64,000 nucleotides of DNA from Stegostoma tigrinum (lineage: Eukaryota): the NCBI RefSeq assembly GCF_030684315.1, contig NC_081363.1, forward strand, positions 43,989,254-44,053,253, in the 5' to 3' direction. Made by a program: the position numbers and the translations under genes. Of this stretch, positions 11,321 through 53,829 are shown piece after piece (the first letter of the stretch is position 1; each line of letters starts with the position of its first letter). The notes beneath the pieces are model-generated. The model was not told the DNA's origin and made no database searches. It was given only the letters and a program-made list of their open reading frames with translations.

Positions 11321-11885
11321 CATTCATTTTTTTCTTTCATACTAAAGACTTATCCTGTAATTACACTGTTAAAAACATGAATAAATTAAGCCCAGAATAT
11401 GAGATATAACAGGGAAAATTAATCCTTTTCCTGATGTTGTACTGTTGATTAACTAAATAAAAATCACCAGGACATACATAGCTTTTAATGCATTTTAACA
11501 ATCATTCTTTTCTGGGGTGAGAGTATTGTTACAATGGTAGCTTATCACTGATGGCCCTTGAGAAGTTGGTAGCGAGCTGCCTACTTGAAGTGCTCCAGTT
11601 CATCTGGTGTAGCTTCACAGAGTGCTGTTGGAGAGAGGCCCACCCAGGATTTTTACTCAGCAACAGTGAAGAAATAGCAATAATTGTTACAAATCAAGAA
11701 AGGATGCGGCTGAGAGGGGAACTTGTGGGTAATAGTGTTCCATACGTTCACTGTCCTAAGTAGTAGAGACCTGAGATTTGGAAGGTACCGCCTGGAGGAA
11801 AAGCTACTACTAGTTGTCACTGATAATAAAATGTGAGGCTGGATGAACACAGCAGGCCAAGCAGCATCTCAGGAGCACAAAAGCT

Positions 11886-11913
11886 GACGTTTCGGGCCTA
11901 GACCCTTCATCAG
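11886..11913 (-). ncRNA. Minimal hammerhead-ribozyme-like motif in Penelope pLTR
   Basis: CTGATGA-a-gggtc(ta)ggccc-GAAAcgTC on the minus strand. Confidence 0.6.
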
Positions 11914-12410
11914 AGAAGGGGATGGGGTGAGGGTTCTGGAATAAATAGGGAGAGGGGGGAGGCGGACCGAAGATGGAGAGAAAAGAAGATAGGTGGAGAG
12001 GAGAGTATAGGTGGGGAGGTAGGGAGGGGATAGGTCAGTCCAGGGAAGACGGACAGGTCAAGGAGGTGGGATGAGGTTAGTAGGTGGATGGGGGTGCAGC
12101 TTGGGGTGGGAGGACATCCCCTCCCCCCACTGCACCACACAACCAGCCCAGCTCTTCCCCTCCACCCACTGCATCCCAAAACCAGTCCAACCTGTCTCTG
12201 CCTCCCTAACCTGTTCTTCCTCTCACCCATCCCTTCCTCCCATCCCAAGCCACACCCCCATCTACCTACTAACCTCATCCCACCTCCTTGACCTGTCCGT
12301 CTTCCCTGGACTGACCTATCCCCTCCCTACCTATCTTCTTTTCTCTCCATCTTCGGTCCGCCTCCCCCTCTCTCCCTATTTATTCCAGAACCCTCACCCC
12401 ATCCCCCTCT

Positions 12411-12438
12411 CTGATGAAGGGTCTAGGCCCGAAACGTC
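12411..12438 (+). ncRNA. Minimal hammerhead-ribozyme-like motif in Penelope pLTR
   Basis: CTGATGAagggtctaggcccGAAAcgTC. Confidence 0.6.
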
Positions 12439-13030
12439 AGCTTTTGTGCTCCTGAGATGCTGCTTGGCCTGCTGTGTTCATCCAGCCTCACATTTTATTA
12501 TCTTGGATTCTCCAGCATCTGCAGTTCCCATTATCTCTGATACTAGTTGTCACTGTTCTTTGGTGGTGGAGGGAGTGGATGAGGTGGCGATAAAGTGACT
12601 GCTTTCTCCTGGACGACAATGAAACTTCTTGTGTGTCGTGCTGTATGTGGGTTAAAACTTCAACGTTCATTCTTCCTCGGGAAGGCAAAACATCCCGATA
12701 AACAACTGCCAAAACAGAACGAAGAACGGCGGATGCTGGAAATCTGAAACAAGCACAGAAACCGCTGAAGAAACTCATCACAGATGCTGTCATTGTTTCT
12801 CCAGCATTTTCTGTTTTTCTAACAATTGCCAAAATTGCGATCGCCATTCGTTAACCCCTCCGAAGTTTTAAGGTAAATCTAAGTCATTTCAGCCAGGTAC
12901 ATTACTCCACACGATCACAGGAATCAGGACAATCTTTTGGTTTTTTAATCAGGACAGTGCTCCCATTCTGTGCAATCTCCCTCCCTTCGCTTACGAAACA
13001 ATACCCCGCCTCGATCGGAGTCCTGCTCAC

Positions 13031-13131
13031 CTGTGCTTTCCTCGCACAAGGCAGTGCGCTGGGAACCCACTGAAAGTCCTGGCCAGCCGCGAAGCCGCAC
13101 AAGCGAGGAGCGCAGAAACCACCGTCGCCAT
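13031..13131 (-). CDS. L2HGDH: L2HGDH exon 1 coding part, mitochondrial-presequence-like
   Basis: ATG at 13131 encodes MATVVSALLACAASRLARTFSGFPAHCLVRGKH(S), which is Ala/Arg/Leu-rich with no acidic residues. The phase-2 donor ag|gtgag matches exon 2. Lies in a CpG-rich island. Confidence 0.85.
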
Positions 13132-13400
13132 GAAAGTCCAACCGGCCGCGACCTTTCACCCTCCGGCTCGAAGCCACAGGCGCGCATGCGGGGTGAACGA
13201 TCGGAACGGCGGCGGACTGCACCTGCGCAGTGTGCTCGTTGTTCTGGCGGCTGCTCGCGCTTGCGCCGGTGGTCGGCGTCAGGAGCAGGATTTTTGCTGC
13301 TTTTTAAATCCTGGGCCGAGGGAAACCAGCTCGGAAAACTATCTTCAGATTCGCATGTTAGACGTGACTGACTGCCCAGCTCCAATCTGATTTTTTGGGG
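13132..13400. promoter_or_regulatory. CpG-rich bidirectional promoter of L2HGDH/DMAC2L with NRF1-like sites
   Basis: CpG-dense region between divergent start codons about 640 bp apart. GCGCGCATGCG at 13180-13190, TGCACCTGCGCA at 13218-13229 and GCGCTTGCGC at 13257-13266 resemble the NRF1 consensus. Confidence 0.7.
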
Positions 13401-13430
13401 CGGGGGGTTGGTGAAGAAGGAGAGAGAGAG

Positions 13431-13578
13431 ACTACGGATACTGGAAATCAGAAACAAAACATAAATTGCTGGAAGAACTCAGCAGGTCAGTTCTGAAGAA
13501 GGGTGACTGAATCCTGAACATTAATTCTGCTTTCTCTCTGCACAGATGCTGAGTTTTTCCAGCAATTTTCGTTTTTGG
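13431..13578. mobile_element. Second-family inverted-repeat element with CTGAAGAAG core, in the DMAC2L 5' region
   Basis: Arms aaattgctggaagaactcagca / tgctgagtttttccagcaattt. Related copies at about 12712-12822, 17990-18115, 31722-31876, 33688-33990, 35463-35690, 49107-49202 and 51205-51403. Confidence 0.7.
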
Positions 13579-13772
13579 TCCGGTCCAATGACGGACTGTT
13601 TGTTCAGAGTTTTACTTGTTTTCGAATAGAAGAAACCATGTGAGCCTGTCTTTGCTTTCTCCAGCTCGCAGTGACATCACGTTTGTTATTACAGTATAAG
13701 CGATGGGAAGCATAAATAAATGTGGTATTCTAATCCATCTTTGTTTTTCATAACTTCAGAAAATCTATCAAG

Positions 13773-13876
13773 ATGCTGTTTGCGACGACACCGGCATCTT
13801 TCGCGGCTCTGCGGTGTATACATTCTCCTGTTTGCCGCAGAAATTTTTGGGGATGGTTGAATGCTGTTTTCAACAA
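13773..13876 (+). CDS. DMAC2L: DMAC2L / ATP synthase subunit s (factor B), first coding exon
   Basis: MLFATTPASFAALRCIHSPVCRRNFWGWLNAVFN(K) contains the FWGWLNAVFNK signature. Acceptor ttcag at 13759, donor gtaagt at 13877. Confidence 0.92.
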
Positions 13877-13963
13877 GTAAGTTTAAGCTAAACGACAACT
13901 TACCACTTCGAAATCGTTCACCAATATATCGTATGTAATGATGGTCCATTCCCTTTCAAATAG

Positions 13964-14172
13964 GGTGGATTATGATCGTATAAAGGCTGTTGGTCCAGAC
14001 AGAGCTGCATCAGAGTGGTTACTTCGTTGTGGCGCTAGTGTGCGTTACAAAGGCTTTGATAAGTGGCAGAAAGATTACAATCACCTACCCACTGGCCCAT
14101 TGGAGAAATTCAGAATTGAAGGAATTGATGCCACTGAATCATGCATTATGTTCAAAGGATTTGACTACCTGG
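13964..14172 (+). CDS. DMAC2L: DMAC2L coding exon 2 (209 bp)
   Basis: VDYDRIKAVGPDRAASEWLLRCGASVRYKGFDKWQKDYNHLPTGPLEKFRIEGIDATESCIMFKGFDYL, with tag/gtac boundaries. Confidence 0.96.
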
Positions 14173-17613: not shown

Positions 17614-17639
17614 GGAGAGAGAGAGAGAGAGAGAGAGAG
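17614..17639. repeat. (GA)n microsatellite
   Basis: About 13 GA units. Confidence 0.9.
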
Positions 17640-17684
17640 CACGAGAGAGCGCGCTTGGTCATAAAAGATCAATATCAGATGAAT

Positions 17685-17779
17685 AGATAATAAAATGTGA
17701 GGCTGGATGAACACAGCAGGCCAAGCAGCATCTCAGGAGCACAAAAGCTGACGTTTCGGGCCTGGACCCTTCATCAGAG
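17685..17779 (-). mobile_element. Solo ~95-bp Penelope pLTR tip (hammerhead motif to TTATC)
   Basis: Near-identical to the reverse complement of 33405-33498. Confidence 0.85.
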
Positions 17780-27246: not shown

Positions 27247-27300
27247 CTGTGGAGAAAATAAGTTCCAGTTATACCAACAGTAGAAAAACTATTTTCAAAT

Positions 27301-27677
27301 GTTTTCCAGGCCAATAATCCTCAAAGACTGTCAGTTTCTTCAGTTCTGGTCTTAAAAAAACCTCCTGGTCCTTGCCTTCAATTAACTACACCTATGCTTT
27401 AGAATTCACTCCTTGTACCTTGTGATCCCTACTCTTTTAAAACTCTCCATAAAAACAGCCTGTCAAAGCTATTAGGTATTCCGCCTAGTGCCTCCTTTGA
27501 CTCTGTCAATTTTTGTTCTCTATTTTTATAGGGTTTAAATAGGGTTGTATGTAATTGTTCATAAGTTATTTAAATCTTTGCCAAATTAGTTAATGAAAAG
27601 CTTTATATTTAAATTGCATCTTTAATGATGTCAGGATGTCCCAAAGTACTTTACAGCCAATTTAGAAGCAGATGTGG
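27301..27677 (+). repeat. Local direct duplication, copy 1 (copy 2 at 30519-30958)
   Basis: Long identical runs shared by both copies, e.g. gttttccaggccaataatcctcaaagactgtcagtttcttcagttc and ccttgtaccttgtgatccctactcttttaaaactctccataaaaacagcctgtcaaagctatt. Confidence 0.9.
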
Positions 27678-27984: not shown

Positions 27985-28119
<135 letters not shown>

Positions 28120-30300: not shown

Positions 30301-30518
30301 TTAGGGTGCTACTGCCCTGCCTCCCATCTACATAATCCATACACCTGATCTCATTAAAACACCTGTGAGTCTGTATCTAACCCCATACCAGATGGTGTTT
30401 ATCTAGCACCACTGTGTTTACTGATGAATCTTAGACCCACTGCCCCAATACCTTCATTTCAAAGTGTTCAGCCACATGTTTCCCTTTCCATAGCCTTACC
30501 CTTCTTCATGTCTGTAAC

Positions 30519-30958
30519 GTTTTCCAGGCCAATAATCCTCAAAGACTGTCAGTTTCTTCAGTTCAGGTCTTAAAAAAGCCTCACAGTCCATGCCTTCAAT
30601 TAACTACACCTATGCTTTAGAATTTCATTCCTTGTACCTTGTGATCCCTACTCTTTTAAAACTCTCCATAAAAACAGCCTGTCAAAGCTATTCGTTATTC
30701 CTCCGAGTGCCCCCTTTGACTCTGTCAATTTTTGCTCTCTGTACTGCTATGAAGTGCTCGGGATTATTTTCCTTCGTACTATGAAAATGTAAATTGTTGT
30801 TTAGATAAATTTAAATAGGTTTGTATGTAATTGTTCATAAATTATTTAAATCTTTACTAAATTATTTAATGAAAAGCTTTATATTTAAATTGCATCTTTC
30901 ATGGTGTCGGGTTGTCCCAAAGTACTTTACAGCCAATTAGACATTTTTCAGATGTGGT
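30519..30958 (+). repeat. Local direct duplication, copy 2
   Basis: See 27301-27677. This copy has about 60 extra nt in the middle. Confidence 0.9.
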
Positions 30959-31681: not shown

Positions 31682-31915
31682 TCATGCAACCAAACCTCAC
31701 TTTAAATAGAAAGAAAAAAAAAACAAAACCGCGTATGCTGGAAATCAGAAACAAAATCAGAAATTGCTGGAAAAACTCAACTTTGTTCTGAATAAGGACC
31801 CAAAACGTTAACTCCACTTTCTCTCCACAGATGTGGCCAGATCTGCTGAGTTCTTCCAACAGTTTCTGATTTTGTTTAATGGGAGGATACAATACTTAAA
31901 CAAAACCAGTGATCC

Positions 31916-33536
31916 CTATGCCTGCCTCTTTGTACGTTACGTGGAACAGTCCCTCTTCCGCACCTACACAGGCCCCAAACCCCACCTCTTCCTCCGGTAC
32001 ATTGATGACTGTATCGGCGCCGCCTCTTGCTCCCCAGAGGAGCTCGAACAGTTCATCCACTTCACCAACACCTTCCACCCCAACCTTCAGTTCACCTGGG
32101 CCATCTCCAGCACATCCCTCACCTTCCTGGACCTCTCAGTCTCCATCTCAGGCAACCAGCTTGTAACTGACGTCCATTTCAAGCCCACCGACTCCCACAG
32201 CTACCTAGAATACACCTCCTCCCACCCACCCTCCTGCAAAAATTCCATCCCCTATTCCCAATTCCTCCGCCTCCACCCCCACGATAAGACATTCCCCTCC
32301 CGCACATCCCAGATGTCCAAGTTCTTCAAGGACCACAACTTTCCCCCCACAGTGATCGAGAATGCCCTTGACCGCGTCTCCCGTATTTCCCGCAACACAT
32401 CCCTCACACCCCGCCCCCGCCACAACTGCCCAAAGAGGATCCCCCTTGTTCTCACACACCACCCCACCAACCTCCGGATACAACGCATCATCCTCCGACA
32501 CTTCCGCCATCTACAATCTGACCCCACCACCCAAGACATTTTTCCATCCCCACCCCTGTCTGCTTTCCGGAGAGACCACTCTCTCCATGACTCCCTTGTT
32601 CGCTCCACACTGCCCTCCAACCCCACCACACCCGGCACCTTCCCCTGCAACCGCAGGAAATGCTACACTTGCCCCCACACCTCCTCCCTCACCCCTATCC
32701 CAGGCCCCAAGATGACATTCCACATTAAGCAGAGGTTCACCTGCACATCTGCCAATGTGGTATATTGCATCCACTGTACCCGATGTGGCTTCCTCTACAT
32801 TGGGGAAACCAAGCGGAGGCTTGGGGACCGCTTTGCAGAACACCTCTGCTCAGTTCGCAACAAACAACTGCACCTCCCAGTCGCAAACCATTTCCACTCC
32901 CCCTCCCATTCTTTAGATGACATGTCCATCATGGGCCTCCTGCAGTGCCACAATGATGCCACCCGAAGGTTGCAGGAACAGCAACTCATATTCCGCCTGA
33001 GAACCCTGCAGCCATATGGTATCAATGTGGACTTCACCAGTTTCAAAATCTCCCCTTCCCCCACCGCATCCCTAAACCAGCCCAGTTCGTCCCCTCCCCC
33101 CACTGCACCACACAACCAGCCCAGCTCTTCCCCTCCACCCACTGCATCCCAAAACCAGTCCAACCTGTCTCTGCCTCTCTAACCTGTTCTTCCTCTCATC
33201 CATCCCTTCCTCCCATCCCAAGCCGCACCCCCATCTACCTACTAACCTCATCCCACCTCCTTGACCTGTCCGTCTTCCCTGGACTGACCTATCCCCTCCC
33301 TACCTCCCCACCTATACTCTCTCCACCTATCTTCTTTTCTCTCCATCTTCGGTCCGCCTTCCCCTCTCTCCCTATTTATTCCAGAACCCTCACCCCATCC
33401 CCTTCTCTGATGAAGGGTCTAGGCCCGAAACGTCAGCTTTTGTGCTCCTGAGATGCTGCTTGGCCTGCTGTGTTCATCCAGCCTCACATTTTATTATCTT
33501 GGATTCTCCAGCATCTGCAGTTCCCATTATCTCTGA
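31916..33536 (+). mobile_element. 5'-truncated Penelope-like retroelement (probably Neptune-type), with open RT C-terminus, GIY-YIG endonuclease and 3' pseudo-LTR
   Basis: ORF 31833..33182 has RYIDD (RT), a thumb region FLDLSV...HFKPTDSHSYL, a Cys linker CNRRKCYTC and GIY-YIG VVYCIHC..C..LYIGETKRRL..RF.EH. It is followed by a C-rich repeat ending ...cccattatctctga. Confidence 0.92.
33407..33434 (+). ncRNA. Minimal hammerhead-ribozyme-like motif in Penelope pLTR
   Basis: Same 28-mer, downstream of the GIY-YIG ORF. Confidence 0.62.
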
Positions 33537-34926
33537 TCCTTCAGTACCTGATCACATTGCTCAGCCATCCTAAAATACATCAATACGATTACTTTTAACT
33601 TGTAGTTAATTTAATATAACGCAGTTATGTTTTGAACTCTAAAGTGGCACAATAAAGCAAAGCACTGAATATCCAGTTAGTATGTAAAAACTGAAATAAC
33701 TGTGGATGCTGTAAATCAAAAACAAATTCAGAAATTGCTGGAAAAGCTCAACAGATCTGGCAGCAAAACACCTGCTGATCTGTATGTGCTTGCTTAGTAT
33801 GATCTGCCTGTACTGCTCGCAAAGAAAGCTTTTCACTGTACTTGGGTACACATGACAATAGATCAGATCAAATCAAAACATCTGTGGAGAGGTGGTTTGA
33901 AGGACAGTCACTCGATTCAAAACATTAACTGATTTCTCTCCATAGATGCTGCCAGACCTGCTGAGTTTTTCCAGAGATTTCTGCTTTTCTTTGTGACCAG
34001 TTAATATGGTTAGGTGATGTCAAATGAGGGAAAAAAAATTAACCAAGTCATTTAAACAACTCTCAACTCCTGGATGAGATCTTTTGGTTTTAACTCATTT
34101 AAAACTCATGCTCTTGTAGAATTGGAACCTTTATGTTTGCCTTAACATTTGGAAGACCTCAATCTAAGGTTTTAGGTTTTATAGGATGACAAGGTAAAGG
34201 TAAAGTCATCATAGTCCTACCAGACCAAAGGGCTGTTCTCTCATTAGAGAAAGAGAGAGAGAGGAATGACTAGTGGTGGTTAAACCTGAGGTCTAAGGGA
34301 AAGCTCTAGAAAGAGAGTACTTCAGGGTAACCTCAGCTGTTGATAGAATAAAACCCATGCCAGTGGCACCAAATCCAAAGACATGCAGGTTAGGTAATTA
34401 GCCCCACGTCATAGACCCCATACAGGGTTAGGAAAATGGAGGCAGTAGCTGCGTGGGATGTTATTTCAGTGCAGACTCGATGGGCCGAATGGCCTGTTTA
34501 TGCTGTGAAGGGATTCTATGATTAGCAATCACACTGCATCACAGACTGGCCAACAGAGCTAACCAAACCTTTAAAAGATAGCACTTCTAAAAAGTATCAT
34601 GACAGCTTAGAATTGCACAGAAACATCAGCCTAGAATAGTGCACTCCACTTCCATACCCGATCTATATTTAAATGCGTACATCAAAATAAAGACCACTAT
34701 TTCAGAAATGCTATATGATGGTTGATACATATATATTCAATGAATGAAACTGGTCAAAGGCATTTGAGTGATACTTAAAGCAGCCCAGTATTACTATTTA
34801 TTATTAACTCTGCAACTGCCCAACTGAGAAATTTATATTTCAAAAGTAGTTTTAATCTTGTGCTTATCAATATCGAGACACTTTTTAAAAAATCTGAACC
34901 AAAGATGCAGCAGTTTTTAAAATATC

Positions 34927-35345: not shown

Positions 35346-35462
35346 AGATTTAAAATAATATGAAAATTTCATTTCATTCAGATGATGGTGTTAATTGCAA
35401 GTTTTAGTTGGTATTATAATGAACTCCTAAACTGTTGTGATATATAGCAAATCAATTGTTAT

Positions 35463-35690
35463 AAAAACTGAAAGAACTAAGGATGCTGTAAATCGGGAAC
35501 AAAAACAGCAGTTGCTGGAAAAGCTCAGCAGGTCTGGCAACATCGGCAAAGAAAAATAAGTTAACATTTTGGGCCCGGTGACCTTCAACTGTCATTAAGT
35601 TCAGAGGAAGGGTCATCAGATCCAAATATTAACTGATTACTTTCTTCACAGATGCTGCCAGACCTGCTGAGCTTTTCCAACATAATTGTT
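35463..35690. mobile_element. Second-family hairpin element (head-to-head degenerate hammerhead cores)
   Basis: gctggaaaagctcagcaggtctggcaacatc ... gatgctgccagacctgctgagcttttcc inverted arms. Confidence 0.7.
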
Positions 35691-35841
35691 ATCTTTAGTT
35701 TAAGCATATAATCTACTCAGTCACTGAAGCAGTTATCTTCTTTTAGTAATGCCACTCAAGAACAGCTAAACAATTGTCATATATCTTATAATAAGTGGTA
35801 AAACTAACCATTAGATATTTGTTGAAAATATAGGATAGTCA

Positions 35842-35967
<126 letters not shown>

Positions 35968-36970: not shown

Positions 36971-37040
36971 ACTGCAAGCTGGTAAAATTTATTATGTTAT
37001 TATTACACAATAAGATTTCTCTAAAAGATTCCATATACTT

Positions 37041-37136
37041 TTCTGAAGAAGGGTCCCAATCCGAAACGTCAGCTTTCCTGCTCCTCTGATGATGCCTGGC
37101 CTGCTGTGTTCCTCCAGCCCCACACTGTGTTATCCA
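37041..37136 (+). mobile_element. Solo pLTR tip of the related subfamily (further copies at about 2117-2211, 6932-7008, 39364-39449, 44048-44115, 56396-56487)
   Basis: ttctgaagaagggtcccaatccgaaacgtcagctttcctgctcctctgatg...gttatcc. Confidence 0.75.
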
Positions 37137-37924: not shown

Positions 37925-38080
<156 letters not shown>

Positions 38081-39328: not shown

Positions 39329-39531
39329 TTTTCATTGCCAAGAATAAATCAGTGCCATAGATCGAAGGGTCTAGGCCTGAAACATCAACTTTTGTGCTCC
39401 TACGATGCTGCTTGGCCTGCTGCGTTCATCCAGCTGCACACTTTGTTATATCACAGTAATCAAGCTTAGAATGCTACCTTCCTTGCTATGCAAATCAGGT
39501 GTATTGTGTAGGCTACACTCAATGTTACTTA

Positions 39532-40038
<507 letters not shown>

Positions 40039-40206: not shown

Positions 40207-42060
40207 AACATAAGAACTAGGAGTTGGAGTAGGCAATTCAGCCCCCTCAGCCTGCTTCATTATCCAATACAGTCATGGCTGATCTTATCTGGCTTTCAAC
40301 TCCTGCCTAATCCCCATAACTCTTCAACCTATTGCTGAATGAAAATCTGTCTGTCTATCTCCTCAAGTTTACTCAATGCTCCAGCATCCATTGCACTCTG
40401 AGGAAATGAATTCCATAGATTCACAACCATTTCATGTTTTAAATCTGTCACCATTTATCCTAAAACTACAACCTCTCATTCTAGATTGTTCCATAGGAGG
40501 AAACATTCTCTCTTTATACACTTTGTCAAACTCCTTTAGCATCTTATATACCATGGTTAGATCTCCTTCCATTCTTCTAAATTGCAGACAGTATAAGCCT
40601 AAACTGCTCAACATCTCTCCGTAGGATAAACTGTTCATCCCTGGAATCAATTTAGTGAATCTCCTCTGAACTGCCTCCAATGAAACTACATCCCTCCTCA
40701 AGTAAACGGACCAAACTATATACAATACTCTAGGTGCAGTGTCACTAATGCCCTGTACAGTTGCAGCAACACTTCCCGAATTTTATACTCTCCCTTGAGC
40801 AATAAATACCAAAATTCCATTTGCTTTCCTTATTACCCACCATACCTATGTACTAGTTTTCTATAATTCAGGCATGAGGACACCCAGATCCCTCTGCACT
40901 GAAGCAGTCTGAAGTTTCTCGCTATTTAGATAATAAATTGCCTTTCTATTCTTCTGATCAAAATGGATAACCTTGTTATCAAATTTAAACTCACTCAATC
41001 TGTAAAATTTTGGCTAACTTACCCAATCTATCCATATCCAATTATACATTTCTTATTTCTTCAGTGCAACTTACTGTCCCAATGATTTTAGTGTCATCTG
41101 CAAATCTGATGACAGTATATTGTATCCCTGAATCCAAGTCATTAATATAGATTGTAAATACTTGGTGCCCAAGGACTGAAATCTGTGGGAGACTCTGTTA
41201 GTTACAGCTTGCCAAACAGAAAAAGACCTCTTCATCCCAACTCACTCAGAGGCAGCAAGAACTGCCAGTGCTGGAGTCTGAGATAACACAGTGTGGAGCT
41301 GGATGAACCCAACAGGCCAGGCAGCATCAGAGGAGCAGGAAAGCTGACGTTTCGGGTCAGGGGAAGGGAGCTCTGAAATAAATAGAGAGGAGGAGTGGGG
41401 CTGCAGAAGTTAGATGGGATGGTGACAGGTGAGTGCAGGTAGGCAGTGGTGGGGATTGGTCAGTGAGGTTGTGGAGTGGATAGGTGGGGAGAAGACAGAC
41501 AGGTCAAGGAGGTAGGGATCAGAGGAAGGCTTGGTCATGGGATGGGGCCAGAGGTGGGGAGATTTTGAAACTAGTAAAGTCCACATCGAGATCATTGGGT
41601 TATAGGCCCCTGAGGCAGAATATGAAGTCCTGCCCCTCCAGTTTCCAGGTGGCGTCGTTGTGACACTCGAGTAGGCCCAGGATGGACGTGTCATCCAGGG
41701 AGTGGGAGGGGGAGTTGAAGTGGTTTGCAATTGGAAGGTGTTGTTGTTTGTCACGAACAGAGCGCAAGTGCACCTCACTGACCAATCCCCACCACTGCCT
41801 ACCTGCACTCATCTATCACCATTCCACCTATCTTCCCCAGCCCCACCCCTCCTCTGTCCTTATTTCAGAGGCCCCTTCTCCCTCCTGCATTTCTGAAGAA
41901 GAGTCCCGACCTGAAACATCAGCTTTCCTGCTCCTCTATTCATCCCAACTGTCTGCTTTTTGTTGGTTAATCTTCTAAGCTAATAAATTAGATGTAACCC
42001 CATGTGGTCTTATGACTGTAACCAACTGCTACTGTTTGGGGACTTGTAGGTTCCTTCCAC
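40207..42060 (-). mobile_element. CR1 LINE fragment split by a Penelope insertion
   Basis: ORF 40432..40725(-): LEAVQRRFTKLIPGM..LSY.E.L..LGLY. CR1 sequence resumes after the TSD at 41950. Confidence 0.8.
41243..41938. mobile_element. Penelope-derived inverted insertion nested in a CR1 LINE, 12-bp TSD
   Basis: Minus-strand GIY-YIG tail and pLTR, then a plus-strand pLTR from about 41771. TSD ttcatcccaact at 41231-41242 and 41939-41950. Confidence 0.8.
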
Positions 42061-45000
42061 TAGGGAATTCTTTCCCGTGCTATTTCTTAATCAGTTTAAT
42101 TAGAAATTTGGTGTCTTAATCTCCGGTGCCTAAATAATTTCTCACTACAGCACTAATCTTTTCCTTTACCAAAGTTACAACACCTCTTTTCCCTTCTTGC
42201 CTATCCTTCCAAAGCAGAGTACCCTTGGATAGCCAATTTTGAAACCTGGTCTCCCTGCAACTATGTCTCAGTAGTCACCGTCAAATCACATCCTTTCATC
42301 TCTAGTTGTACTACTATGTAATTAATTTTATTGCAAATGCTTCATGTTTTCAGCTTCAAACCCTTTAAATTTGTTCAAATTTAATGTTTCCCTACTCTTG
42401 TACAATTCCTTGTTGCAATAGGACATTTAGATAATAAAAGGAAGGGACCAGCTATGTTAATGACCCTTTTATTAGTTCAAAACAATGAAGTGAAACAGTT
42501 ACACGGTTGACATTTTAACTTCAAATGCTTAACTTTTTATAGTAAACAATAACGTCTCCTGCACAAAGAATCCAATTATTTCCCTTCTCATGTTCATTGC
42601 AAATACCATTTCTTCTTAATGGGATTTCCTGGTTTCCTACTTGCTGAAAGACATAAATGGAAGATCCGAGTATGAACTGATTCTGAACAAACTAAATACT
42701 AGTTATTTGATCTGGATAATTTGTTCTCTAGCACATGTGATACCACTTATTCAATGAACTATTGGATGACTGATCATTTTTACAAACTTTTGGAACCACA
42801 CACGTCCTTTCAGAAGGAGAAAAATGGTGCTGTTTCGCAATGAGTAAAGGTATCACATTACAATGAAAAACACTGCGGCAAGCAAAGCAGTAACGATTAA
42901 AACAAATGTTTGATTAAAACTGATAATGAACAGCAAAGAGCACAGTAGTCTATGTAACAACATTAGGTTTTGCTACAAAAAATAAAAGCATGATTTTTTT
43001 TTCTCAATTTCATATACTTACCACTGGTATTAAATATAGTGCAATCTCTCCAACCCAGAATGCTGGAAACCAAGTCATTTTCAGATATTGGAATTTTCTC
43101 ATTTTTAAGAATGATGTTAGGATGCCTAACCATTAGTGTATGAACCAGAGAACACCATAAAATATAAATATTTACCATTAAAACAAAACAAAGGATAAAA
43201 CGTTATGCATCAGTTGTAATATTTTTCATTTATCCAAGGATATACCTTTCAGGTTTCCTAAAAGTCCTGCACTAAAATGATTCTGAGCTGCTCGAGTCCT
43301 GTTGAGAAGATTTCCAGCCAACATGTGTTTCTGAATTTTTTTCCAGACCAGAGAGGTTACAGTGTTATGATTTGCCAGAGTTATGCATGTTTTAAACATA
43401 ATCATGACCAGGAAAGACTACCAGTTCTATCCTAATGGGGGTAAGTGCTTACGATATGTGCCACCCTGTAAAATGGCAACAATTTAGTTTGCCATAATGG
43501 GTCTTTACTTGACTCTATTTCACATTCCATAACTGAACAACTGACACGTTTCAACTCTGGAGCCAAGATGGGTTCAATAAAGCTTTGAGTTATTACTCTT
43601 GAATACCAGTATAAAATATTAGTAACATAGGTTTGTCTTTCCTAAAAAAATTTTAACTGTGAAACAGGGAATTAATATTTTTGTAGAAAAGTTAATCGTT
43701 AATAATTGAATGGTATTCAATTTAAGATAAGTTTATAAACTAATCACTCAAACAGAATGAAAACTTGGCATCACAATAATGCACATTTTCTGTGTTGAGA
43801 TATAATGTGCTCATTTGATGTAGTACTGCTCTTTTTATGTTAAAGCTATTTAGTGCAAGTCGTAAGAACTTGAATTCAAGTTTGAAACAAATATTTGTGT
43901 AATTATGGCAGGAAAAGACTTCAATCTAAGCAAAATTGAAGCAAAAATCTACATTTAAATTCTGATCGTTCTAAATGACTGACCATATCGTAGATTCAGT
44001 TTAAAACTGACCACAGGTAGTTTTGTAATCCGGATTCGGCTTAGATTCAAAACATCGACTTTCCTGCTCCTCTGATGCTGCCTGACCCGCTGTGCTCCTC
44101 CAGCTCCATACTGTACTGATTCTAAAGGGGCCTTGACAGGCTAGACCTGAGGGGAGGCTCCTCCATCTTAGGGAATCTTAATTAGTTTAAAAATAAGGGG
44201 TGTCCTTTTTAATGATGGAAATGAGAAATTTCTTCCCTCAGAGGGTTGTTGGTCTTTGCAATTTTCATCCAAAAGTACAGCAGTGGTTGATTCAGCAAGT
44301 ATTTTCAAGGCTGGGTTTGACAGAGTTTTGATCTACAAACAGATGAAGGGATTTGGGAGCATGGATTGCAGGGAAGAAACTGGTGTTAAGAATCACATTA
44401 GCCATGACCTTACTGAATGGCACGGCAGGCTCATTGGGCTGAATGGCCTTCTCATGTTACTACTACTTATAATTTTATGATTTTAAAATATCAAGCAGTA
44501 AAGTCTCCATGCATTACTTTGTCTTTAAAGTCCACAGAACAGAGAAACTAGGTGCTGGAAGTTGTAGATGCCCTGCAAGGGTGGAAGTAATGGCATGTGG
44601 GGTGATTTTATTGGCAGGATTATATTCTCAGTTTCCCTGACAGTAGGTTAAGATACAGATATGTCAGCAGCATGTTAAACCACATGCCAACCTGCGGTTG
44701 ATTCTCACTTGTAATACATTTACGGACCATGAATATTCATTAACATACACCATTTTCATTTTGAAGGTCTGACCCAATTTTAAAGTCAGCAGTTAATGGG
44801 CTCAAGCTAGTTTAAAGATGGTATGCAGTAGATTGGCTTTGAGTTGCAAGGCCAACACTTTCCCTCACTTAACTCTGTGACACAGGAGAAGGGATCAGGA
44901 AAATAGCAACTTGCTTGGAGGGTCAGGCCAGCAAAGGTGAGTCAGGGATAAAGGGGGCAGGGTGCAGTGGATAAGGGATTCAAGGGATAATAGACGGTGG

Positions 45001-45326
45001 GGTCGAAGTCATGGCAGAGTGAAGTAGGAAAAACTTAGGTGTCATTGATGTGGTGGGGGTAAATATCAATCAAGCTAAAAAAGTAAGGTGCCCAAAGTCA
45101 GGACTGTCTAAATAGGTAACCATCACTTGGGTGTTGACTGGCACAAAGAGCTTTTAGTTCATGTAATAATTACAGTAATCCCTACTGAAAGTAAAAGCCA
45201 TTGTCTAAGACTGATGCATAGAAAGAAGGGTCAACTGAGCCTGCAGGTTCAGCTGCATTCCAGAGTGACAAGTACAACAGTGGACACTAACATGAACATT
45301 AAATAAAGAATGAAGAATAAAACATT

Positions 45327-45535
45327 AGAGATAACAAGGTGTAGTGCTGAATGAACACAGCAGGCCAAGCAGTATCAGAGGAGCAGGAAAGCTGACGTTT
45401 CCTCAGTTTCTGAAGGTCAAGACCTGAAACAACAGCTTTCCTGCTCCTCTGATGCTGCTTGGCCTGCTGTGTTCATCCAACTCTACACCTGGTTATCTCA
45501 GATTCTCCAGCACCGGCAGTTCCTACTATCTTTGT
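45327..45535. mobile_element. Older Penelope-derived mini-hairpin element
   Basis: Head-to-head pLTR tips. Degenerate TSD aagaataaaacatt (45313-45326) / aagagtaaaacatt (45536-45549). Confidence 0.8.
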
Positions 45536-46232
45536 AAGAGTAAAACATTGTTTCTTTCATAATGAAGGAAGTTACCTTTTCCTGTCACCACCAATACATA
45601 CCAAAAAAGAGGTGTTCCAGTAAACTTAGCTCTTTGAGCTAGTTTCAACAAAGTGATGATGCACTTTATTCATAGTTAATTAATGTGAAATATCTACAAA
45701 TGAAATTTAAATTTTGAAATATATCTTATGGCACCTCTGTGCTTTCAAGTATTACATTAATGGCCATGGAGTTGGGCAGGAAAGTTGCAGTTATGAGACA
45801 CTGCCTTACTGTTTGAGGATGAGACTTTTTTTTTGTTTTTGTGGATGTTACTGACTGGGCCACCATCTACAGTTGCCCTTGAGAAGTTGGTGGCGAACCG
45901 CCTTCTTGAACCACTGCAGTCTACATGCTGCAGGTAGATCCATAATGCCATTAGAGTGGGAGTTCTGATCCAGCAACAGTGAAAGAATGGCAATATTTTT
46001 CCAAGTCAGGATGATGAGTGGGTTGGAAGGGTTCCCAAGTGGTGGTGTTCCCAAGTATCTACTGCCTTTGTCATTCTGGATGGAAGTGGTGGTAGGTTTG
46101 GAAGATGCCCGCTGATGGCAGGTTTCAACAAAGGAAAAAAAAGCTTTCCAGCTGCACGAATGTATGTATCTTACACATGTCAAACACTAAAATTTTAATC
46201 GTAATCCAAAGGAAGCATGAACATGAGAATTG

Positions 46233-46798
46233 GAGATATTCCCTCCCATTCCTTAAATGACATGTCCATCCTGGGCCTCCCGCAGTGCCACAATGATGCC
46301 ACCCGATGGTTGCAGGAACAGCAACTCGTATTCCACTTGGGAACCCTGCAGCCTAATGGTATCAATGTGGACTTCACAAGCATCAAAATCTCCCCCTCCC
46401 CCACTGCATCCCAAAACCAGCCCAGCTCGTCCCCGCCTCCCTAACCTGTTCGTCCTCTCACCTATCCCCTCCTCCCACCTCAACCGCACCTCCATTTCCC
46501 ACCTACTAACCTCATCCCGCCTCCTTGACCTGTCCATCCTCCCCGGTCTGACCTATCCCCTCCCCACCTCCCTACCGATACTGTCCTCTCCACCTAAATT
46601 CTCCTCTGTCCATCTTTGGTCCGCCTCCCCGCTCTCCCTATTTATTTCAGAACCGCCCCCCAATCCCCCTCTCTGATGAAGGGTCTAGGCCCGAAATGTC
46701 AGCTTTTGTGCTCCTGAGATGCTGCTTGGCCTGCTGTGTTCATCCAGCTCCACACTTTGTTATCTTGGACTCTCCAGCATCTGCAGTTCCCATTATCT
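46233..46798 (+). mobile_element. 5'-truncated Penelope-like insertion, 11-bp TSD
   Basis: GIY-YIG tail (MSILGLPQCHNDATRWLQEQQLVFHLGTLQPNGINVDF) plus pLTR. TSD catgagaattg at 46222-46232 and 46799-46809. Confidence 0.88.
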
Positions 46799-46961
46799 CA
46801 TGAGAATTGCACTTGGCACACACTTTCGGTTACATCACTCAGAATGGCACACTGACAAATTCTAAACCCCACACCCCCAACCCTGATGTCAGTGAGGTAC
46901 ATAAAGGGCAAAACTGGGATGATTTTTATTTTTATCCCAATCACAACTGAGCTCTTCATTT

Positions 46962-47650
46962 GTGATAATGGGAACTGCAGATGCTGGAGAATCCAAAATA
47001 ACAAAGAACATATATATACCACATTGGCAGATGTGCAGGTGAACATCTGTTTGATATGGAAGGTCATCCTGGGGCCTGGGATGGGGGTGAGGGAGGAGGT
47101 GTGGGGGCAAGTGTAGCATTTCCTGCGGTTGCAGGGGAAGGTGCTGGGTGTGGTGGGGTTGGAGGGGAGTGTGGAGCGGACAAGGGAGTCACGGAGAGAG
47201 TGGTCTCTCCAGAAAGCAGACAGGGGTGGGGATGGAAAAATGTCTTGGGTGGTGGGGTCGGATTGTGGATGGCGGAAGTGTCGGAGGATGATACGTTGTA
47301 TCCGGAGGTTGGTGGGGTGGTATGTGAGGACGAGGGGGATCCTCTGGGGGCGGTTGTGGCGGGGGCGGGGTGTGAGGGATGTGTTGCGGGAAACACGGGA
47401 GACGCAGTCAACGGCATTCTTGACCACTGCGGGGGGAAAGTTGTGGTCCTGGAAGAACGTGGACATCTGGGATGTGCGGGAGTGGAATGCCTCATCCTGG
47501 GAGCAGATGCGGCGGAGGCAGAGGCGGAGGAATTGGGAATAGGGGATGGAATTTTTGCAGGAGGGTGGGTGCCGGAGTAGTGTATTCTAGGTAGCTGTGG
47601 GAGATGCTGCTTGGCCTGCTGTGTTCATCCAGCTCCACACTTTGTTATCT
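46962..47650 (-). mobile_element. Internally deleted Penelope-like insertion with short inverted arm, 14-bp TSD
   Basis: ORF 46798..47466(-) matches the 449-aa ORF. TSD tgagctcttcattt at 46948-46961 and 47651-47664. Confidence 0.88.
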
Positions 47651-49252
47651 TGAGCTCTTCATTTATCAGCTTTGTACAGATGCAAATATGAAGTTCAGAA
47701 CATTGTTACAGATGAGAAATGGCACCGTCTCAGTTATTTAAAAATTTAAATTAGTGGTTTCAAATCCTTTGTACATAGAAAGCAACTATTAGTAAGACTT
47801 AATTTGTTGCATGTTTCAAAATGCATAGCTTATAGCAGAGCATTTCATGTTTGAACAAATTATCACATGTTTATATTAACTTGTAACTTTTTTATTTACC
47901 TACTTTCTGAATATAGTAATATCACACAATCTACAAATGTCTAAAGTAAAACTTTGGCACTATATAGTTTGCGTTCAGCAACAGGGTTAGTTTGACACTC
48001 CCACAAATTTTTCATACATCTCAAACACACCATAAATAACTGATTTGTTACAAGTTGTCGTATTTACTTGCAAATGCCAACCCATTCTTAGCAACAGCAG
48101 CAGTAAGGAAAACAGATTATTGCTAGGTTCCAATATGTTACTTTTAAAATTAGTTCTGGTCTTGTGTTCGTGTCCAGGTAATGAAACTGAGAAATATATA
48201 GTTTATCATATATCAGAACATTAAAAAAAATTCACATTCATTTCATGAACACCAAAGTTAATGTTTACATCACAATACCCACAGAATGAAATGTTTAATA
48301 CAATCGGCAGTTACTGACAAACACACACCACTTGGAAGTCTGCAATTTTTTCCTGGTCAACATCTATATGAATATGAACATGAAAAGGAACATTATAACA
48401 AGTAATGCAGTACAAACAAGAAACATATTGCACCAAAACTGTCTTTGCTAATACAAGTAAACTTTCTTGATCAATTTTTCACCCCTGGAAAAATGATTCA
48501 TGTGCTGAGTTCCTTTTAAAATCCTTCTAAAAGTACAAGGGTTTCTGAATTACCTAATCATTTTTAAGATGACTTTTAATTTAGAAAGATTTATCACAAA
48601 CAATCCAATAGTGCATGAAAAAGGAGGACATTTTTGAGAAACAATGTTATTTAAAAGCTTTTGCAGACATTTGGCAATGGGGAAAATAGCATGAATTATT
48701 CAGAAATGCAAGGATATTCATATCAATAATACAGCCAAAACCATTTATATTGTTAAAATGGGTCAGTGGGAAAAATGTTGATGGTATCACGTTATAAAGT
48801 AACAACAACCAATGCCAACAGAATGTTCAGTATGCAAGTAAATCCATAATTTATTGGTCTGGAGACACAAGACTGACACTCTAGAAAGCATTGGCAAAGA
48901 CACACAGAATACTGTGTCCAACTGTGGTGTCCATTTATGAAAAGACATACATACTGTAAAATCTTCAAAGAAGAGTAATAAAAACAATAATTTTAAACAA
49001 TCCAGGAGAGGTTAAAGTGGATTTTTCAGGGAAAATAACAAATAAAGTAAAGAAATAAGGTAAAGGGTCAAAAAGGGAAGAGTTGAGGAAGAATGTTGGA
49101 TGTGCCCTGAAGAAAGGTCACTGGACCCGAAACATTAACTCTGGTCCTCTGTCCGCAGACACTGCCAGAAAGTTTCTCCAGCAATTTCTCTTTTTGTTTC
49201 AGGAATAATGTGAGTTTCAACTTTTATCGATACAAATGACGATTGCTCTGAT

Positions 49253-50365: not shown

Positions 50366-50597
50366 ATGAACAGGTAATACTCACACATACAACATTATGC
50401 TCCATTGCTGTGAATCAACATAACAGTAAATCATGATCCAACTTAAAAAAAATCACTAAGCAACCCCATAAGATGACTTTTGTAAGTTAGTGATCTCAGA
50501 GACAGAACTACAATGTATGAAATCTACAAGTACAAGGTATCTCATATAAATACAACACACACATTTAAAATATAATTTGCAGGGTTTTTTTTAAAAA

Positions 50598-50905
50598 CAT
50601 AGAATCCCTACAGTGTGGAAACAGGCCCTTCGTCCCAACAAGTCCACACCGACCCTCAGAACATCCCACCCAGTCCCATCCCCCTATAAACCCACCTAAT
50701 CTACATATCCCTGAACATGAAGGGCAATTTAGCACAGCCAATCCACCTAGCCTGCACGTCTTTGGACTGTGGGAGGAAATCGGGGCACCTGGAGGAAACC
50801 CATGCAGACACGGGGAGGATGTTTGGAGTTTGCACAGTAACCTGAGGCTGGAATCGAACCCAAGTCCCTGGTGCTGTGAGGCAGCAGCACTAACCGCTGT
50901 GCCAT
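50598..50905 (-). mobile_element. HE1-type tRNA-derived elasmobranch SINE
   Basis: A box tggcacagcggttagtg, B box gggttcgattcc, central tgcgtgggtttcctccaggtgc-like domain and a CR1-like tail. Confidence 0.8.
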
Positions 50906-51639
50906 GGTCCTGCTCCATATTCTTTGCTTACTTGTCATATGTTTACTTATCACCCATCCATTGATGCCCTGAGAAGACGCTGCTCGGCTGCCAAATTAAA
51001 ATGCTCCAGTTGAGAGCAGTTTGGCGCAATCTATTAGCCTCCACTTCAGAGAGCAAGTTGGTGTGGTGCTGCAGTGATATATTAGCCAAAGTAGGCAAGG
51101 ACAGGGGTTTTTCAAAAGATGTGTCATTAGTGAACCAGGTAGGTTTTAAAATATAATAGAACAATCTCATGGTCAATTTCACTGACCAGCTTTTGAAGAG
51201 ACATTAATAAAAACACAAAAGGTTTGGGCAGACTTGACAGGTCTGACTGCATCTGTGGATAGAGAAGAAGCGTTAACATTTCAACCCTTCTTCTGGACAA
51301 GTTTGAAATGTTCACTGTTTCTCTCACCACCAGAACAGCTGGATTTCTCCAGCATTTTCTGTTTTATTTCAGATTTCAAGCATTGGAATTACTTTGCTTT
51401 TATTTGAAAAAGTAACTTTGGTGAACTAATAAACTCCTTTTGGTGCAGCAGGTTTCTGATGAACAATTGCAGCTGACCTCTTGCCTATGCAAAGAGAAAG
51501 CAGATTAATAACTATTAGCCACTCTTGTACATTTCTAATAAATCAGTTAAAAAGCTGTCACCTATAAACAGTTTAGCTACCTTTCCTCACTTGGTGTGTT
51601 TTGTCCCAAAACAGGAAAACAAAATAATTAATATGTGAT

Positions 51640-51869
51640 CAGAGATAATGGGAACTGCAGATGCTGGACAATCCAAGATAACAAAGTGTGAAGCTGGATG
51701 AACACAGCAGGCCAAGCAGCATCTCAGGAGCACAAAAGCTGACATTTCGGGCCTAGACCCTTCATCAGAGAGCTCTCAGATGAAGGGTCTAGGCCCGAAA
51801 CATCAGCTTTTGTGCTCCTGAGATGCTGCTTGGCCTACTGTGTTCATCCAGCTTCACACTTTATTATCT
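51640..51869. mobile_element. 230-bp palindromic Penelope-derived element, 15-bp TSD
   Basis: Two pLTR tips head-to-head around the centre cagagagctctcag. TSD taattaatatgtgat at 51625-51639 and 51870-51884. Confidence 0.9.
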
Positions 51870-53829
51870 TAATTAATATGTGATATAGATAGAATATCAG
51901 AGAGTAAATTAGAGTATAAACAGTTAATTCAGTCCACATGATTTCCATTCAAAATGCATTGAAATTGGCTTATTTGTTTAACTCTCAAGAGAAATAATAT
52001 GCTAATTTTTTTGATCCCTGGAGTTAATTCAGCCAACTTGATTCCTATTTCATTGCAATAAGTCAGGATTGAAATGCTCTCTGCAAGCAACAACTTGTAG
52101 TAGTACTACATGTTTGATCACTCCAGATGAACAATATATCACCAACTATTTTTGTGAATGAATAAGTTGACAGAACATCAGCTATTTTTATAGCAGTTTA
52201 TGTTAAAAGTCCGTGGCATATACGACAAAAAAAACTTCAGCAACTCACAAAATCAACGCCTCTCCAAATTTTAAAGAAATGATTTGTGTTCTCTCCTCCC
52301 ACTTTTTATCTGCTCTCAAATCAAAACTGCTCCATTCTGTTTCTGAACCAATTACTTAAATCTGCGAATCATCCCTTCAATTTTATCCAGTTTTTAAATT
52401 TTCATGAACATGATTGTATTGTGTGAGATGCACACAAAGTTTTCTGGTAACTTTAGAAAACACACAATTGTCATAGCCAACCATCTGAATTGTTCTTGTA
52501 GAAGTGAAAACGTCTAGAGAAACCAAACTTTCTTTGATATATCTGGCACAACAACACTGTAGCTGTCAATGTGTGGTAGTCATAAATAGCAAAAAACTGA
52601 TCAAAATGTTGTCTCTGTAAAATGTGTATTGCTGACATTTGCTAATTTATTTAAATGTGAAATATTGTCTTACTGGATAATAGCATTCATTGGCTATTAT
52701 AATTCAGCATTTCTGGCCTTAATAAATGATAACATACAGTAATTACCTTAAACTATTAAGGTTGGGGGGTCATACTATACATCCTCAACTTGAAATACTC
52801 AAACCAAATTTTTTTTAAAATCAGATTCAAGTTATTAGTTTTTTTTCTAAAATGTTATTCCAGACAATGAAGCATTGGGTGCTGTTTAGTTAACTAATAT
52901 TGTCAAACCGTGAAACAACCATTATGCATGCAAACAAAGCCACATAGGGAGTGTTTCAATTTGACTGTTACAGAGTAAACACTTTCCTTGGAGGGACAAA
53001 TCCATTTACCCATATACAGTAAGCTTTGCAGAGTTGATTGAGCCAAAGAGTGGCACGGTGTTAACCAGAACTGTGCAGTCTGACAGCACAGGACACTTCT
53101 AAATTTCTACTTCTTGTTAAACCAAAGCCTCTCTCACATTAGGAATAATATTGGCTTGCATGGCTAGAGCCAAATTAAAAAGAATTCCTGCTCCAATGAT
53201 TACTCCAATTGTCAAACATGCCCTGAAGTACAATGAACCGCTCCTCATCATTGTCACCATGTAAGAAAACATTACCATGATACTGAATGTAAGCATCATA
53301 TCTAAAAATTAACTGTTTCTTTTTCTCTCTCACTCCCCACAGAGGCAGCCAAACCAGCTGGGTTTCTCCAGCACTTTGTTTTTACTTCAAACCCCACTGT
53401 TTGGGACTTCTACCATTTGGCAGTGCAGTTTCACTGCAACACAATCAGGGGTTCAATACAGGAATGTCTGGATGACATGAGCATGGGTTACATACTTGGC
53501 CTACCTGGTTTTCCCAGCAGCTATAAGCCCCATTCTCAGAGTTCTAAGCAATGAGAGGAGATCCATCTCCCTCAGTATGATGGTAGAATGCTGAAAGAAT
53601 GGCAAGTCCCAAGCTTCCAAGTCCAGGGCTGTGCATCCAGATAACACAAAAGATTTCGTAAAGAGGTATGCTTGAAATGAATCAATTTTCACTTTAAAAG
53701 AACTGAGCTGTATGTTAGTTTTCTTTTCTTGCCACAAATCCCTGTTGCTCTATTTGGTTCTTAAACTATCAAACCTATTCATTATTTGTGTGACTAGACA
53801 ATTACCTGGACACCAGGAATAGATGTCAG

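What the first reader, a model, noticed from the sequence alone, without database searches (positions are those of the whole stretch)
11808..51884. Stereotyped long-arm/short-arm asymmetry: the two ends of inverted insertions stop at two different TTATC(T) motifs
Seen in four TSD-bounded insertions (11823-12540, 45327-45535, 46962-47650, 51640-51869). One arm runs to the distal ...cccattatctctga-type end. The inverted arm always stops about 38 nt earlier, at the internal ...cacattttattatc / ctttgttatct motif. Solo tips at 17685, 2117, 6932, 37041 and 39364 also end at the internal TTAT(C). The 46233 insertion starts with a residual inverted 'gagata'. Inference: there are two fixed initiation or nicking points in the pLTR, one for each strand-priming event at a staggered 11-15 nt target cut. 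This would be a mechanistic footprint of Penelope integration readable from the genome.
Basis: partly seen in the sequence, partly recalled or inferred. Interest (0 to 1): 0.72.

Follow-up and report, generated by a model that had tools for sequence, protein, structure and literature searches.

The report
Penelope retrotransposon one-sided "tail"
The uneven ends of these mirror-image insertions are the already described 30-40-base "tail" of Penelope-like retrotransposons, probably left because the two cut DNA strands start copying the element's RNA at two different points.

Summary
The asymmetry is real. All four insertions have 14-15-nt target duplications, one arm ending at a short site (33498-33501 on the window's longest copy) and the other 30-39 nt further on. 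Over two related Penelope-like families, 10 of 11 head-to-head pairs have exactly one long and one short end; none has two alike. Same-species contigs show 3' end piles at 33499 and 33536/7. This is the published PLE "tail", usually at one end only (PMC8557442, PMC3846280); two RT start sites bracketing it were shown in vitro (PMC11167929). Two details fail. TTATC is not the signal: most long ends lie 4-6 nt past it and the second family lacks it. The short end is not tied to the minor arm: the tailed arm reaches further 5' in 4 of 4 decidable family-1 pairs but 0 of 6 family-2 pairs. Likely mechanism (inferred): twin target-primed reverse transcription, one site per target strand. Extras: a 5' end pile just before the hammerhead ribozyme, and unexplained tail-to-tail short-long joints.

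The parts
31914..33537 (+). Longest family-1 copy G (5'-truncated, long end, no TSD, no inverted arm); used as coordinate reference
31914..33182 (+). ORF remnant: end of RT (YIDD), CX4CxxC linker, GIY-YIG endonuclease with two internal cysteines
   Evidence: GIY-YIG E=5e-4, below Pfam cut-off; 99 longer homologues, best E=8e-126
33373..33379 (+). TATA-like heptamer about 30 nt upstream of the 5' end pile (promoter role inferred only)
33403..33406 (+). Common 5' boundary of short copies, just before the ribozyme core
   Evidence: 741 and 731 contigs (X15, X16), 159 in another species (X8)
33407..33434 (+). Minimal hammerhead ribozyme motif (core, bulged A, stem II, GAAA, palindromic stem III); predicted cut after 33434
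   Evidence: motif scan; features as in PMC4209133; not found by Rfam; activity untested
33497..33501 (+). Short end site S
   Evidence: 915 and 899 contigs at 33499
33499..33537 (+). The optional tail; long end site L at 33531-33537
   Evidence: 764/754 contigs at 33536, 724/704 at 33537
11808..12555 (.). Insertion A: TSD, short arm 11823-12114 (-), long arm 12117-12540 (+), TSD
45313..45549 (.). Insertion B (older subfamily): TSD, short arm 45328-45401 (-), long arm 45411-45535 (+), TSD
46948..47664 (.). Insertion C: TSD, long arm 46964-47600 (-; tail plus about 10 nt, then a skip of about 725 nt into the ORF), short arm 47601-47650 (+), TSD
51625..51884 (.). Insertion D: TSD, long arm 51640-51771 (-), short arm 51774-51869 (+), both starting at the ribozyme boundary, TSD
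41231..41950 (.). Insertion E (exception): TSD, long arm 41246-41763 (-), second arm 41772-41935 (+) stopping about 50 nt before S, TSD
46222..46809 (.). Insertion F: TSD, 6-letter inverted remnant 46233-46238 (site ambiguous), body 46241-46798 (+) with long end, TSD
12701..12834 (.). Family-2 pair K: tailed arm (-), short arm (+), 14-nt TSD with one mismatch
13429..13584 (.). Family-2 pair I: tailed arm (-), short arm (+), no TSD found
31721..31907 (.). Family-2 pair J: tailed arm (-), short arm (+), possible 10-nt TSD lying 20 nt beyond the short arm
33673..34008 (.). Family-2 pair L: tailed arm (-), unrelated 130-nt insert, short arm (+), 12-nt TSD with one mismatch
35454..35692 (.). Family-2 pair H: tailed arm (-), short arm (+), 9-nt TSD (at the top of background)
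51200..51396 (.). Family-2 pair M: short arm (-), tailed arm (+), no TSD found
17685..17779 (-). Solo short copy (ribozyme boundary to S); likewise 2116-2211, 6929-7007, 37038-37134, 39364-39449 on +
56393..56488 (+). Solo copy ending inside the tail (exception); 44046-44115 (+) ends before S (exception)

Best explanation
These are insertions of a Penelope-like retrotransposon with a Neptune/Nematis-type linker, and the long/short difference is the known PLE tail. Mechanism: the GIY-YIG endonuclease nicks both target strands 11-15 nt apart (inferred from the TSDs). Each free 3' end primes reverse transcription inside the element RNA, one at the distal site L and one at the proximal site S about 37 nt upstream, with 0-3 nt of pairing (inferred; two such start sites and cleavage and extension of both strands are shown in vitro for a Poseidon element, not for this one). 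The two cDNAs grow towards the RNA 5' end and are joined head to head, giving TSD-arm-arm-TSD with one tail. When priming occurs at the 5' copy of the repeat the cDNA runs off at the RNA 5' end just before the ribozyme, giving the 95-135-nt short copies (inferred). The sites are set by position in the RNP rather than by the TTATC word, and which cDNA gets further is family-dependent.
For: 10 of 11 pairs one long plus one short, 0 short-short, 0 long-long; chance of 10 of 10 discordant is 0.001 if ends were independent at 50:50 (profile built from these same copies, classes assigned after the fact). TSDs of 11-15 nt on 6 of 6 two-sided family-1 insertions. Contig end piles at 33499 and 33536/7, in two runs. 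S and L align between the two families. PMC11167929: both strands cleaved and extended, two RT start sites, tail equals the sequence between them, predicted dimer. In family 2 the short-ended arm reaches the ribozyme boundary in 5 of 6 pairs while the tailed arm stops earlier, which a simple fold-back copy cannot produce.
Against: No biochemistry for this family or clade. PMC11167929 found no strand difference in start site. E has a TSD but its second arm stops about 50 nt before S; F may have two long ends; 2 of 17 unpaired copies end at neither site; unpaired copies lack TSDs. D's two arms differ at 4 of 88 positions while D's long arm differs from copy F at 1, which does not favour a single RNA template. 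One search showed only 24 of about 1,980 loose-end rows, so peak sharpness against background could not be measured, and part of the 33499 pile may be older tails clipped by the aligner. A proposed stem around S has no covariation support (100 of 500 shuffles as good). That the RNA continues past L rests only on a weak consensus of loose ends (agreement 0.4).
Confidence: 0.6

Rival explanations
1. One end is an RT start and the other is an endonuclease cut or strand-transfer point made while resolving the intermediate, so S or L is a nick site on element DNA.
For: PMC8557442 attributes the tail most likely to EN-mediated resolution; PMC11167929 reports earlier work that the D. virilis EN needs the tail to recognise DNA. 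It predicts exactly one tail per insertion, as seen. Tail-to-tail short-long joints could mean cutting at existing element ends.
Against: PMC11167929 mapped RT starts at both sites in a Poseidon element. Solo copies end at S and at L about equally (7 and 8 of 17).
Confidence: 0.2
2. Fold-back self-priming: one cDNA is made from L, its end folds back and copies itself as far as S, where it is joined to the target (a variant of the self-priming proposed in PMC3846280).
For: D has a near-perfect palindromic centre; in family 1 the tailed arm reaches further 5' in 4 of 4 decidable pairs, as a hairpin loop would give; A's arms are identical over 88 nt; raw reads show a head-to-head joint at the ribozyme boundary in 360 reads.
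Against: In 6 of 6 family-2 pairs the short-ended arm holds 5' sequence that the tailed arm lacks, so it cannot be a copy of it unless each lost its centre later; A's short arm holds about 26 nt missing from its long arm (read by eye); D's arms differ at 4 of 88 positions.
Confidence: 0.12
3. One reading: two TTATC(T) words are the recognition signal and the minor inverted arm always takes the internal one.
For: Family-1 short ends lie 0-3 nt after the internal TTATC in 4 of 4 named pairs; C and F end at the distal one.
Against: Long ends pile up 5-6 nt past the distal word; family 2 uses the aligned positions mostly without the word; tailed arm is the further-reaching one in only 4 of 10 decidable pairs overall.
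Confidence: 0.05
4. Chance truncation or later deletion gives an apparent pattern.
For: Few insertions, old copies, classes assigned after the fact; several exceptions.
Against: TSDs abut both ends; hundreds of contigs end at the same two sites; same pattern in two families and in the literature.
Confidence: 0.03

Closest known systems
PLE 'tail' (30-40-bp optional 3' extension; PMC8557442, PMC3846280, PMC2377424)
   Same: Same length (30-39 nt), same place at the 3' end of the repeat downstream of a hammerhead motif, present at one end of head-to-head inverted, TSD-bounded insertions.
   Different: Nothing of kind. The papers read say 'often only at one end'; here a small count (10 of 11 pairs) and a family-dependent link with arm length are added.
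Poseidon element of Anolis carolinensis, PAc (PMC11167929)
   Same: Two internal end points bracketing the tail downstream of the ribozyme (main PAc start 85-92 nt after the cut, from the paper's +111-118 and +26; here L is about 102 and S about 65 nt after the predicted cut); AT-rich flanks; both strands used.
   Different: This element has the CX2-5CxxC linker that Poseidon lacks; its sites are U/C-rich rather than AC-rich; PAc showed no strand preference in vitro and pairing of sites was not examined in the text read.
Neptune and Nematis clades of PLEs (PMC8557442)
   Same: C-terminal GIY-YIG with internal cysteines plus CX2-5CxxC linker (80 of 99 homologues share the pattern).
   Different: Clade not fixed by phylogeny here; no named reference element was compared.
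Twin priming of LINE-1 (recalled; only seen as a search listing)
   Same: Both target strands prime cDNA, giving an inverted arm inside one TSD.
   Different: In L1 the second start is variable and the two arms cover different parts of the RNA; here both starts are fixed and the arms overlap.
Non-LTR retrozymes as non-autonomous PLE derivatives (bioRxiv 10.64898/2026.07.22.740005)
   Same: Short hammerhead-bearing pieces of the PLE repeat spread through vertebrate genomes.
   Different: Those are defined as tandem arrays; the pieces here are solos or head-to-head pairs.

Membership tests
EN+ Penelope-like element | RT followed by C-terminal GIY-YIG endonuclease in one ORF | tested here: met
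   ORF remnant with YIDD and GIY-YIG (E=5e-4, under the curated cut-off); 99 longer homologues, 3 of 3 scanned hit RVT_1 and 2 of 3 GIY-YIG
EN+ Penelope-like element | [quoted passage not shown] | tested here: met
   pattern match in the G translation; the histidines were not checked separately
EN+ Penelope-like element | Minimal hammerhead ribozyme motif in the terminal repeat | tested here: met
   33407-33434 and other copies, features as in PMC4209133; Rfam did not report it
EN+ Penelope-like element | Ribozyme self-cleavage activity | not testable with these tools
   needs an assay
EN+ Penelope-like element | Inverted 5'-truncated copy at the 5' end, TSD-bounded | tested here: met
EN+ Penelope-like element | Optional 30-40-bp tail at one end | tested here: met
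   30-39 nt in 4 of 4 named pairs; 10 of 11 pairs one-tailed
EN+ Penelope-like element | Partial tandem forming direct pseudo-LTRs around a full ORF | tested here: inconclusive
   no full-length copy in the window; one search lists joints from the long end back to upstream positions that may be tandems
Neptune/Nematis clades | CX2-5CxxC linker between RT and EN | tested here: met
   criterion from PMC8557442
Neptune (as against Nematis) | Placement by RT phylogeny | not tested
   no named reference sequences at hand
Penelope/Poseidon clade | Absence of the CX2-5CxxC linker | tested here: not met
   linker present
PLE with two RT initiation sites (PAc type) | cDNA starts mapped at both tail boundaries | not testable with these tools
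   only genomic end points were measured

The most novel reading that the evidence does not exclude
PLE integration uses an asymmetric RT pair in which the two target strands are obligately assigned to different start sites (one S, one L), and this holds beyond Poseidon in a Neptune-type clade; the very common 95-135-nt copies are run-off ('strong-stop-like') cDNAs that map the RNA 5' end just upstream of the uncleaved ribozyme; and the tail-to-tail short-long joints record an element's own long end priming a new cDNA at S through a 3-nt match. I did not find these three points in the papers read or in searches, but the older key papers were not available.
Probability: 0.3. Interest if true: 0.55.

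Novelty: new member of a known kind. Interest (0 to 1): 0.27.

Why it matters
The tail and its link to two RT start sites are published, so the finding as stated is not new. What is useful is the material: a very high-copy family (over 220,000 contigs laid per run on a 491-nt stretch) whose TSD-bounded pairs would let someone test in vivo whether the two sites are obligately paired, which the in vitro study did not address in the text read, and whether the mechanism extends to Neptune-type elements. PLE integration steps after first-strand synthesis are still described as unvalidated in PMC11167929.

Tried and rejected
No whole genome is held, so the genome-wide pairing test could not be run. 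Pattern scans: viral contigs 0, bacterial/archaeal genomes 0, metagenomes 8 loci that match only over 19-21 nt and are chance. Rfam: 8 weak matches, none a ribozyme, the microRNA hits being the palindrome of insertion B. Folding of 33400-33537 is no better than shuffles (z -0.26); RNAalifold gave one 5-pair helix; my own two-helix model had no covariation support. Idea that the tail encodes the ORF start, as in Poseidon: no matching motif in the first 200 residues of 99 homologues, the nearest 53% identical, so untested. Idea that both arms come from one RNA: A neutral, D slightly against. The only raw reads offered were bisulfite-converted, so X19 positions are shifted and its depth is strand-biased. 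Small-share runs X1-X14 were not used except X8, which was laid. Earlier scan findings: three look-ups, nothing. PMC12602865 has none of four terms sought. Supplements of PMC11167929: 3 files held as text, no hit for 3 terms; figures S1-S2 with the exact start positions could not be seen.
Full report
WHAT IS THERE. The window is vertebrate DNA holding a CDKL1-like kinase gene (exon at 55103-55273, best match CDKL1, E=9e-30); my impression that it is a cartilaginous fish is recalled and untested. A self-comparison shows a dispersed repeat family. Its longest copy, G (31914-33537, +), carries an ORF remnant with the end of an RT, a CX4CxxC linker and a GIY-YIG domain. A search among longer proteins gave 99 homologues, best E=8e-126; 3 of 3 scanned hit the RT family and 2 of 3 GIY-YIG; 80 of 99 share the linker plus endonuclease cysteine pattern. 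By the criteria in PMC8557442 (passages) this is an endonuclease-bearing Penelope-like element of Neptune/Nematis type, not Poseidon; no tree was built. Downstream of the ORF lies a minimal hammerhead motif (33407-33434) with the features listed in PMC4209133 (parts 1-2 of 4 read).

THE OBSERVATION. The four insertions are as described. TSDs are 15, 14 (one mismatch), 14 and 15 nt, and E and F have 12 and 11 nt; random pairs reach at most 9 nt exact in 399 of 400 draws. On G coordinates the short ends are 33498, 33499, 33501, 33500 and the long ends 33537, 33535, 33531, 33537, so the gap is 30-39 nt. I then found an older related family whose terminal region aligns with the first. A profile built from 22 of these copies and run over the window (circular as a detector, but one rule for all copies) gives 11 head-to-head pairs. 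Ten have one end at profile positions 101-106 and the other at 124-129; A's short arm scored 118 through spurious extension into its TSD and is counted short. E has a long end and an arm stopping about 50 nt before the short site. None is short-short or long-long. If ends were independent at 50:50, 10 of 10 discordant pairs would have probability 0.001. Three of the six family-2 pairs have a TSD of 10 nt or more (K, L, and J with an offset), H has 9 nt, I and M none.

BEYOND THE WINDOW. No genome was held. I laid 33170-33660 on contigs of two runs that hold 84-85% of the words of a 9.5-kb window stretch (X15, X16; possibly the source of the assembly, so not independent), one run of another species (X8) and one bisulfite raw-read run (X19). 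Among the 24 loose-end rows shown (1,955 hidden, counts incomplete for X15 and X16), 3' ends pile at 33499 (915 and 899 contigs), 33536 (764, 754) and 33537 (724, 704), with long, heterogeneous, AT-rich loose parts (agreement 0.37-0.40). The consensus after 33499 begins like the older subfamily's tail, so some of that pile may be clipped older copies. X19 shows the long end (8,109 reads at 33534); a short-end row was not among its six shown. X8's six rows show neither 3' pile at those positions, but one at 33482 (153 contigs) whose consensus runs on through the short site. So two end sites exist genome-wide; their sharpness and their pairing could not be measured.

WHAT FAILS. TTATC is not the signal. 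The two words are 33 nt apart, the long pile is 5-6 nt past the second, E's long arm lacks it, and most family-2 arms stop at the aligned position without it. Orientation is not fixed: the tailed arm reaches further 5' in 4 of 4 decidable family-1 pairs (D tied) and in 0 of 6 family-2 pairs (H nearly tied); the contrast has Fisher p=0.005, after the fact, and the pooled 4 of 10 is no different from even. Of 17 unpaired copies at E<0.01, 7 end short, 8 long and 2 elsewhere; the family-1 solos and G have no TSD. The six letters at 46233 fit the long end as well as the short.

WHAT IS KNOWN. [quoted passage not shown] PMC3846280 (passages and Discussion): a 31-bp tail optionally on one of the inverted repeats, TSDs of 8-10 bp, head-to-head palindromes read as self-priming. 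PMC2377424 (passages): the 34-37-bp repeat of D. virilis Penelope. PMC11167929 (parts 1-3 of 4): purified anole Poseidon protein cleaves and extends both strands, starts cDNA at two internal sites, the tail is the sequence between them, genomic copy ends fall on them, a dimer is predicted, and no difference was seen between strands. PMC8969392 (passages) lists inverted repeats and short 3' extensions as routine PLE features. bioRxiv 10.64898/2026.07.22.740005 (parts 1-2 of 5) treats hammerhead retrozymes as PLE derivatives. [quoted passage not shown]

MECHANISM. Shown here: two end sites, one of each per inverted insertion in 10 of 11 cases, TSDs of 11-15 nt, 0-3 nt overlap between TSD and element end (A, C, D, F). 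Shown elsewhere for Poseidon: both sites are RT starts. Inferred: each nicked strand primes at a different site and the cDNAs are joined head to head (0.6). Rivals: one site is a nick made in resolution (0.2); fold-back copying (0.12), which family 2 argues against because its short-ended arm holds 5' sequence that the tailed arm lacks. An RNA stem enclosing the short site is possible in both families but has no covariation support.

TWO EXTRAS. First, 5' ends pile at 33406 (741 and 731 contigs; 159 in the other species; AT-rich heterogeneous flanks), at the 5' side of the ribozyme and 28 nt upstream of its predicted cut, about 30 nt after a TATA-like heptamer. Seven window copies that start there share only 5-14 of 40 upstream bases with G, against 20-39 for copies that run on. 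Run-off at the RNA 5' end is my reading; it fits the report in PMC11167929 that uncleaved RNA is the main template. Second, 9 of the 15 joint rows shown (420 hidden) are opposite-strand joints between 33496-33500 and 33531-33538, with 18-38 contigs each in X15 and 15-34 in X16; no short-short or long-long row was shown. By geometry they must be tail to tail. One row has three shared letters, which equals the overlap between the end of the long site and the short site, pointing to a direct fusion. But the tool does not give spacer lengths for these rows, the rows shown are not plainly ranked by count, and neighbouring insertions within one contig (as F and C, 165 nt apart, long end to long end) could contribute. 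This stays unexplained.

VERDICT. A real feature, a new example of the known PLE tail, with the motif and orientation claims corrected. Interest 0.27; the most novel reading (obligate site pairing, run-off products, priming from element ends) has probability about 0.3 and would merit 0.55.

Noticed in passing
reference positions 33496-33500 with 33531-33538: Opposite-strand joints between short and long ends, 15-38 contigs per row in two runs; tail-to-tail by geometry; one row with a 3-letter overlap. Unexplained.
   Followed up: partly
33403-33406: 5' end pile at the ribozyme's 5' boundary in this and another species, about 30 nt after a TATA-like heptamer; possible RNA 5' end.
   Followed up: partly
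table 5c, joints 33537 to 33435 and 33503 to 33435: Joints into 33435, the first base after the predicted ribozyme cut; could record cDNA ending at a cleaved RNA end. Strand and locus number unknown.
   Followed up: no
12701-12834, 13429-13584, 31721-31907, 33673-34008, 35454-35700, 51200-51396: Second, older PLE family with six one-tailed head-to-head pairs; the tailed arm is the one reaching less far 5'.
   Followed up: yes
short site in family 2 and the older family-1 subfamily (e.g. 45490-45503, 49185-49203): The short site lies just before a pyrimidine-rich CAG that looks like a splice acceptor; the young subfamily lacks the AG.
   Followed up: no
46964-47014: C's long arm holds the tail plus about 10 nt and then skips about 725 nt into the ORF: template jump or later deletion.
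   Followed up: no
55103-55273 (-), further exon near 39530-39620 (-): CDKL1-like kinase gene; insertions B, C, D, E and F lie between these exons.
   Followed up: partly
27298-27662 and 30516-30938: Direct repeat of about 365 nt, 93-94% identical in blocks, 3.2 kb apart, with an insertion in the second copy.
   Followed up: no
33050-33165: Three imperfect 35-nt tandem units at the end of G's ORF; fewer units in copy F.
   Followed up: no
33770-33895: Unrelated 130-nt piece inside pair L, resembling a LINE 3' end (recalled, untested).
   Followed up: no
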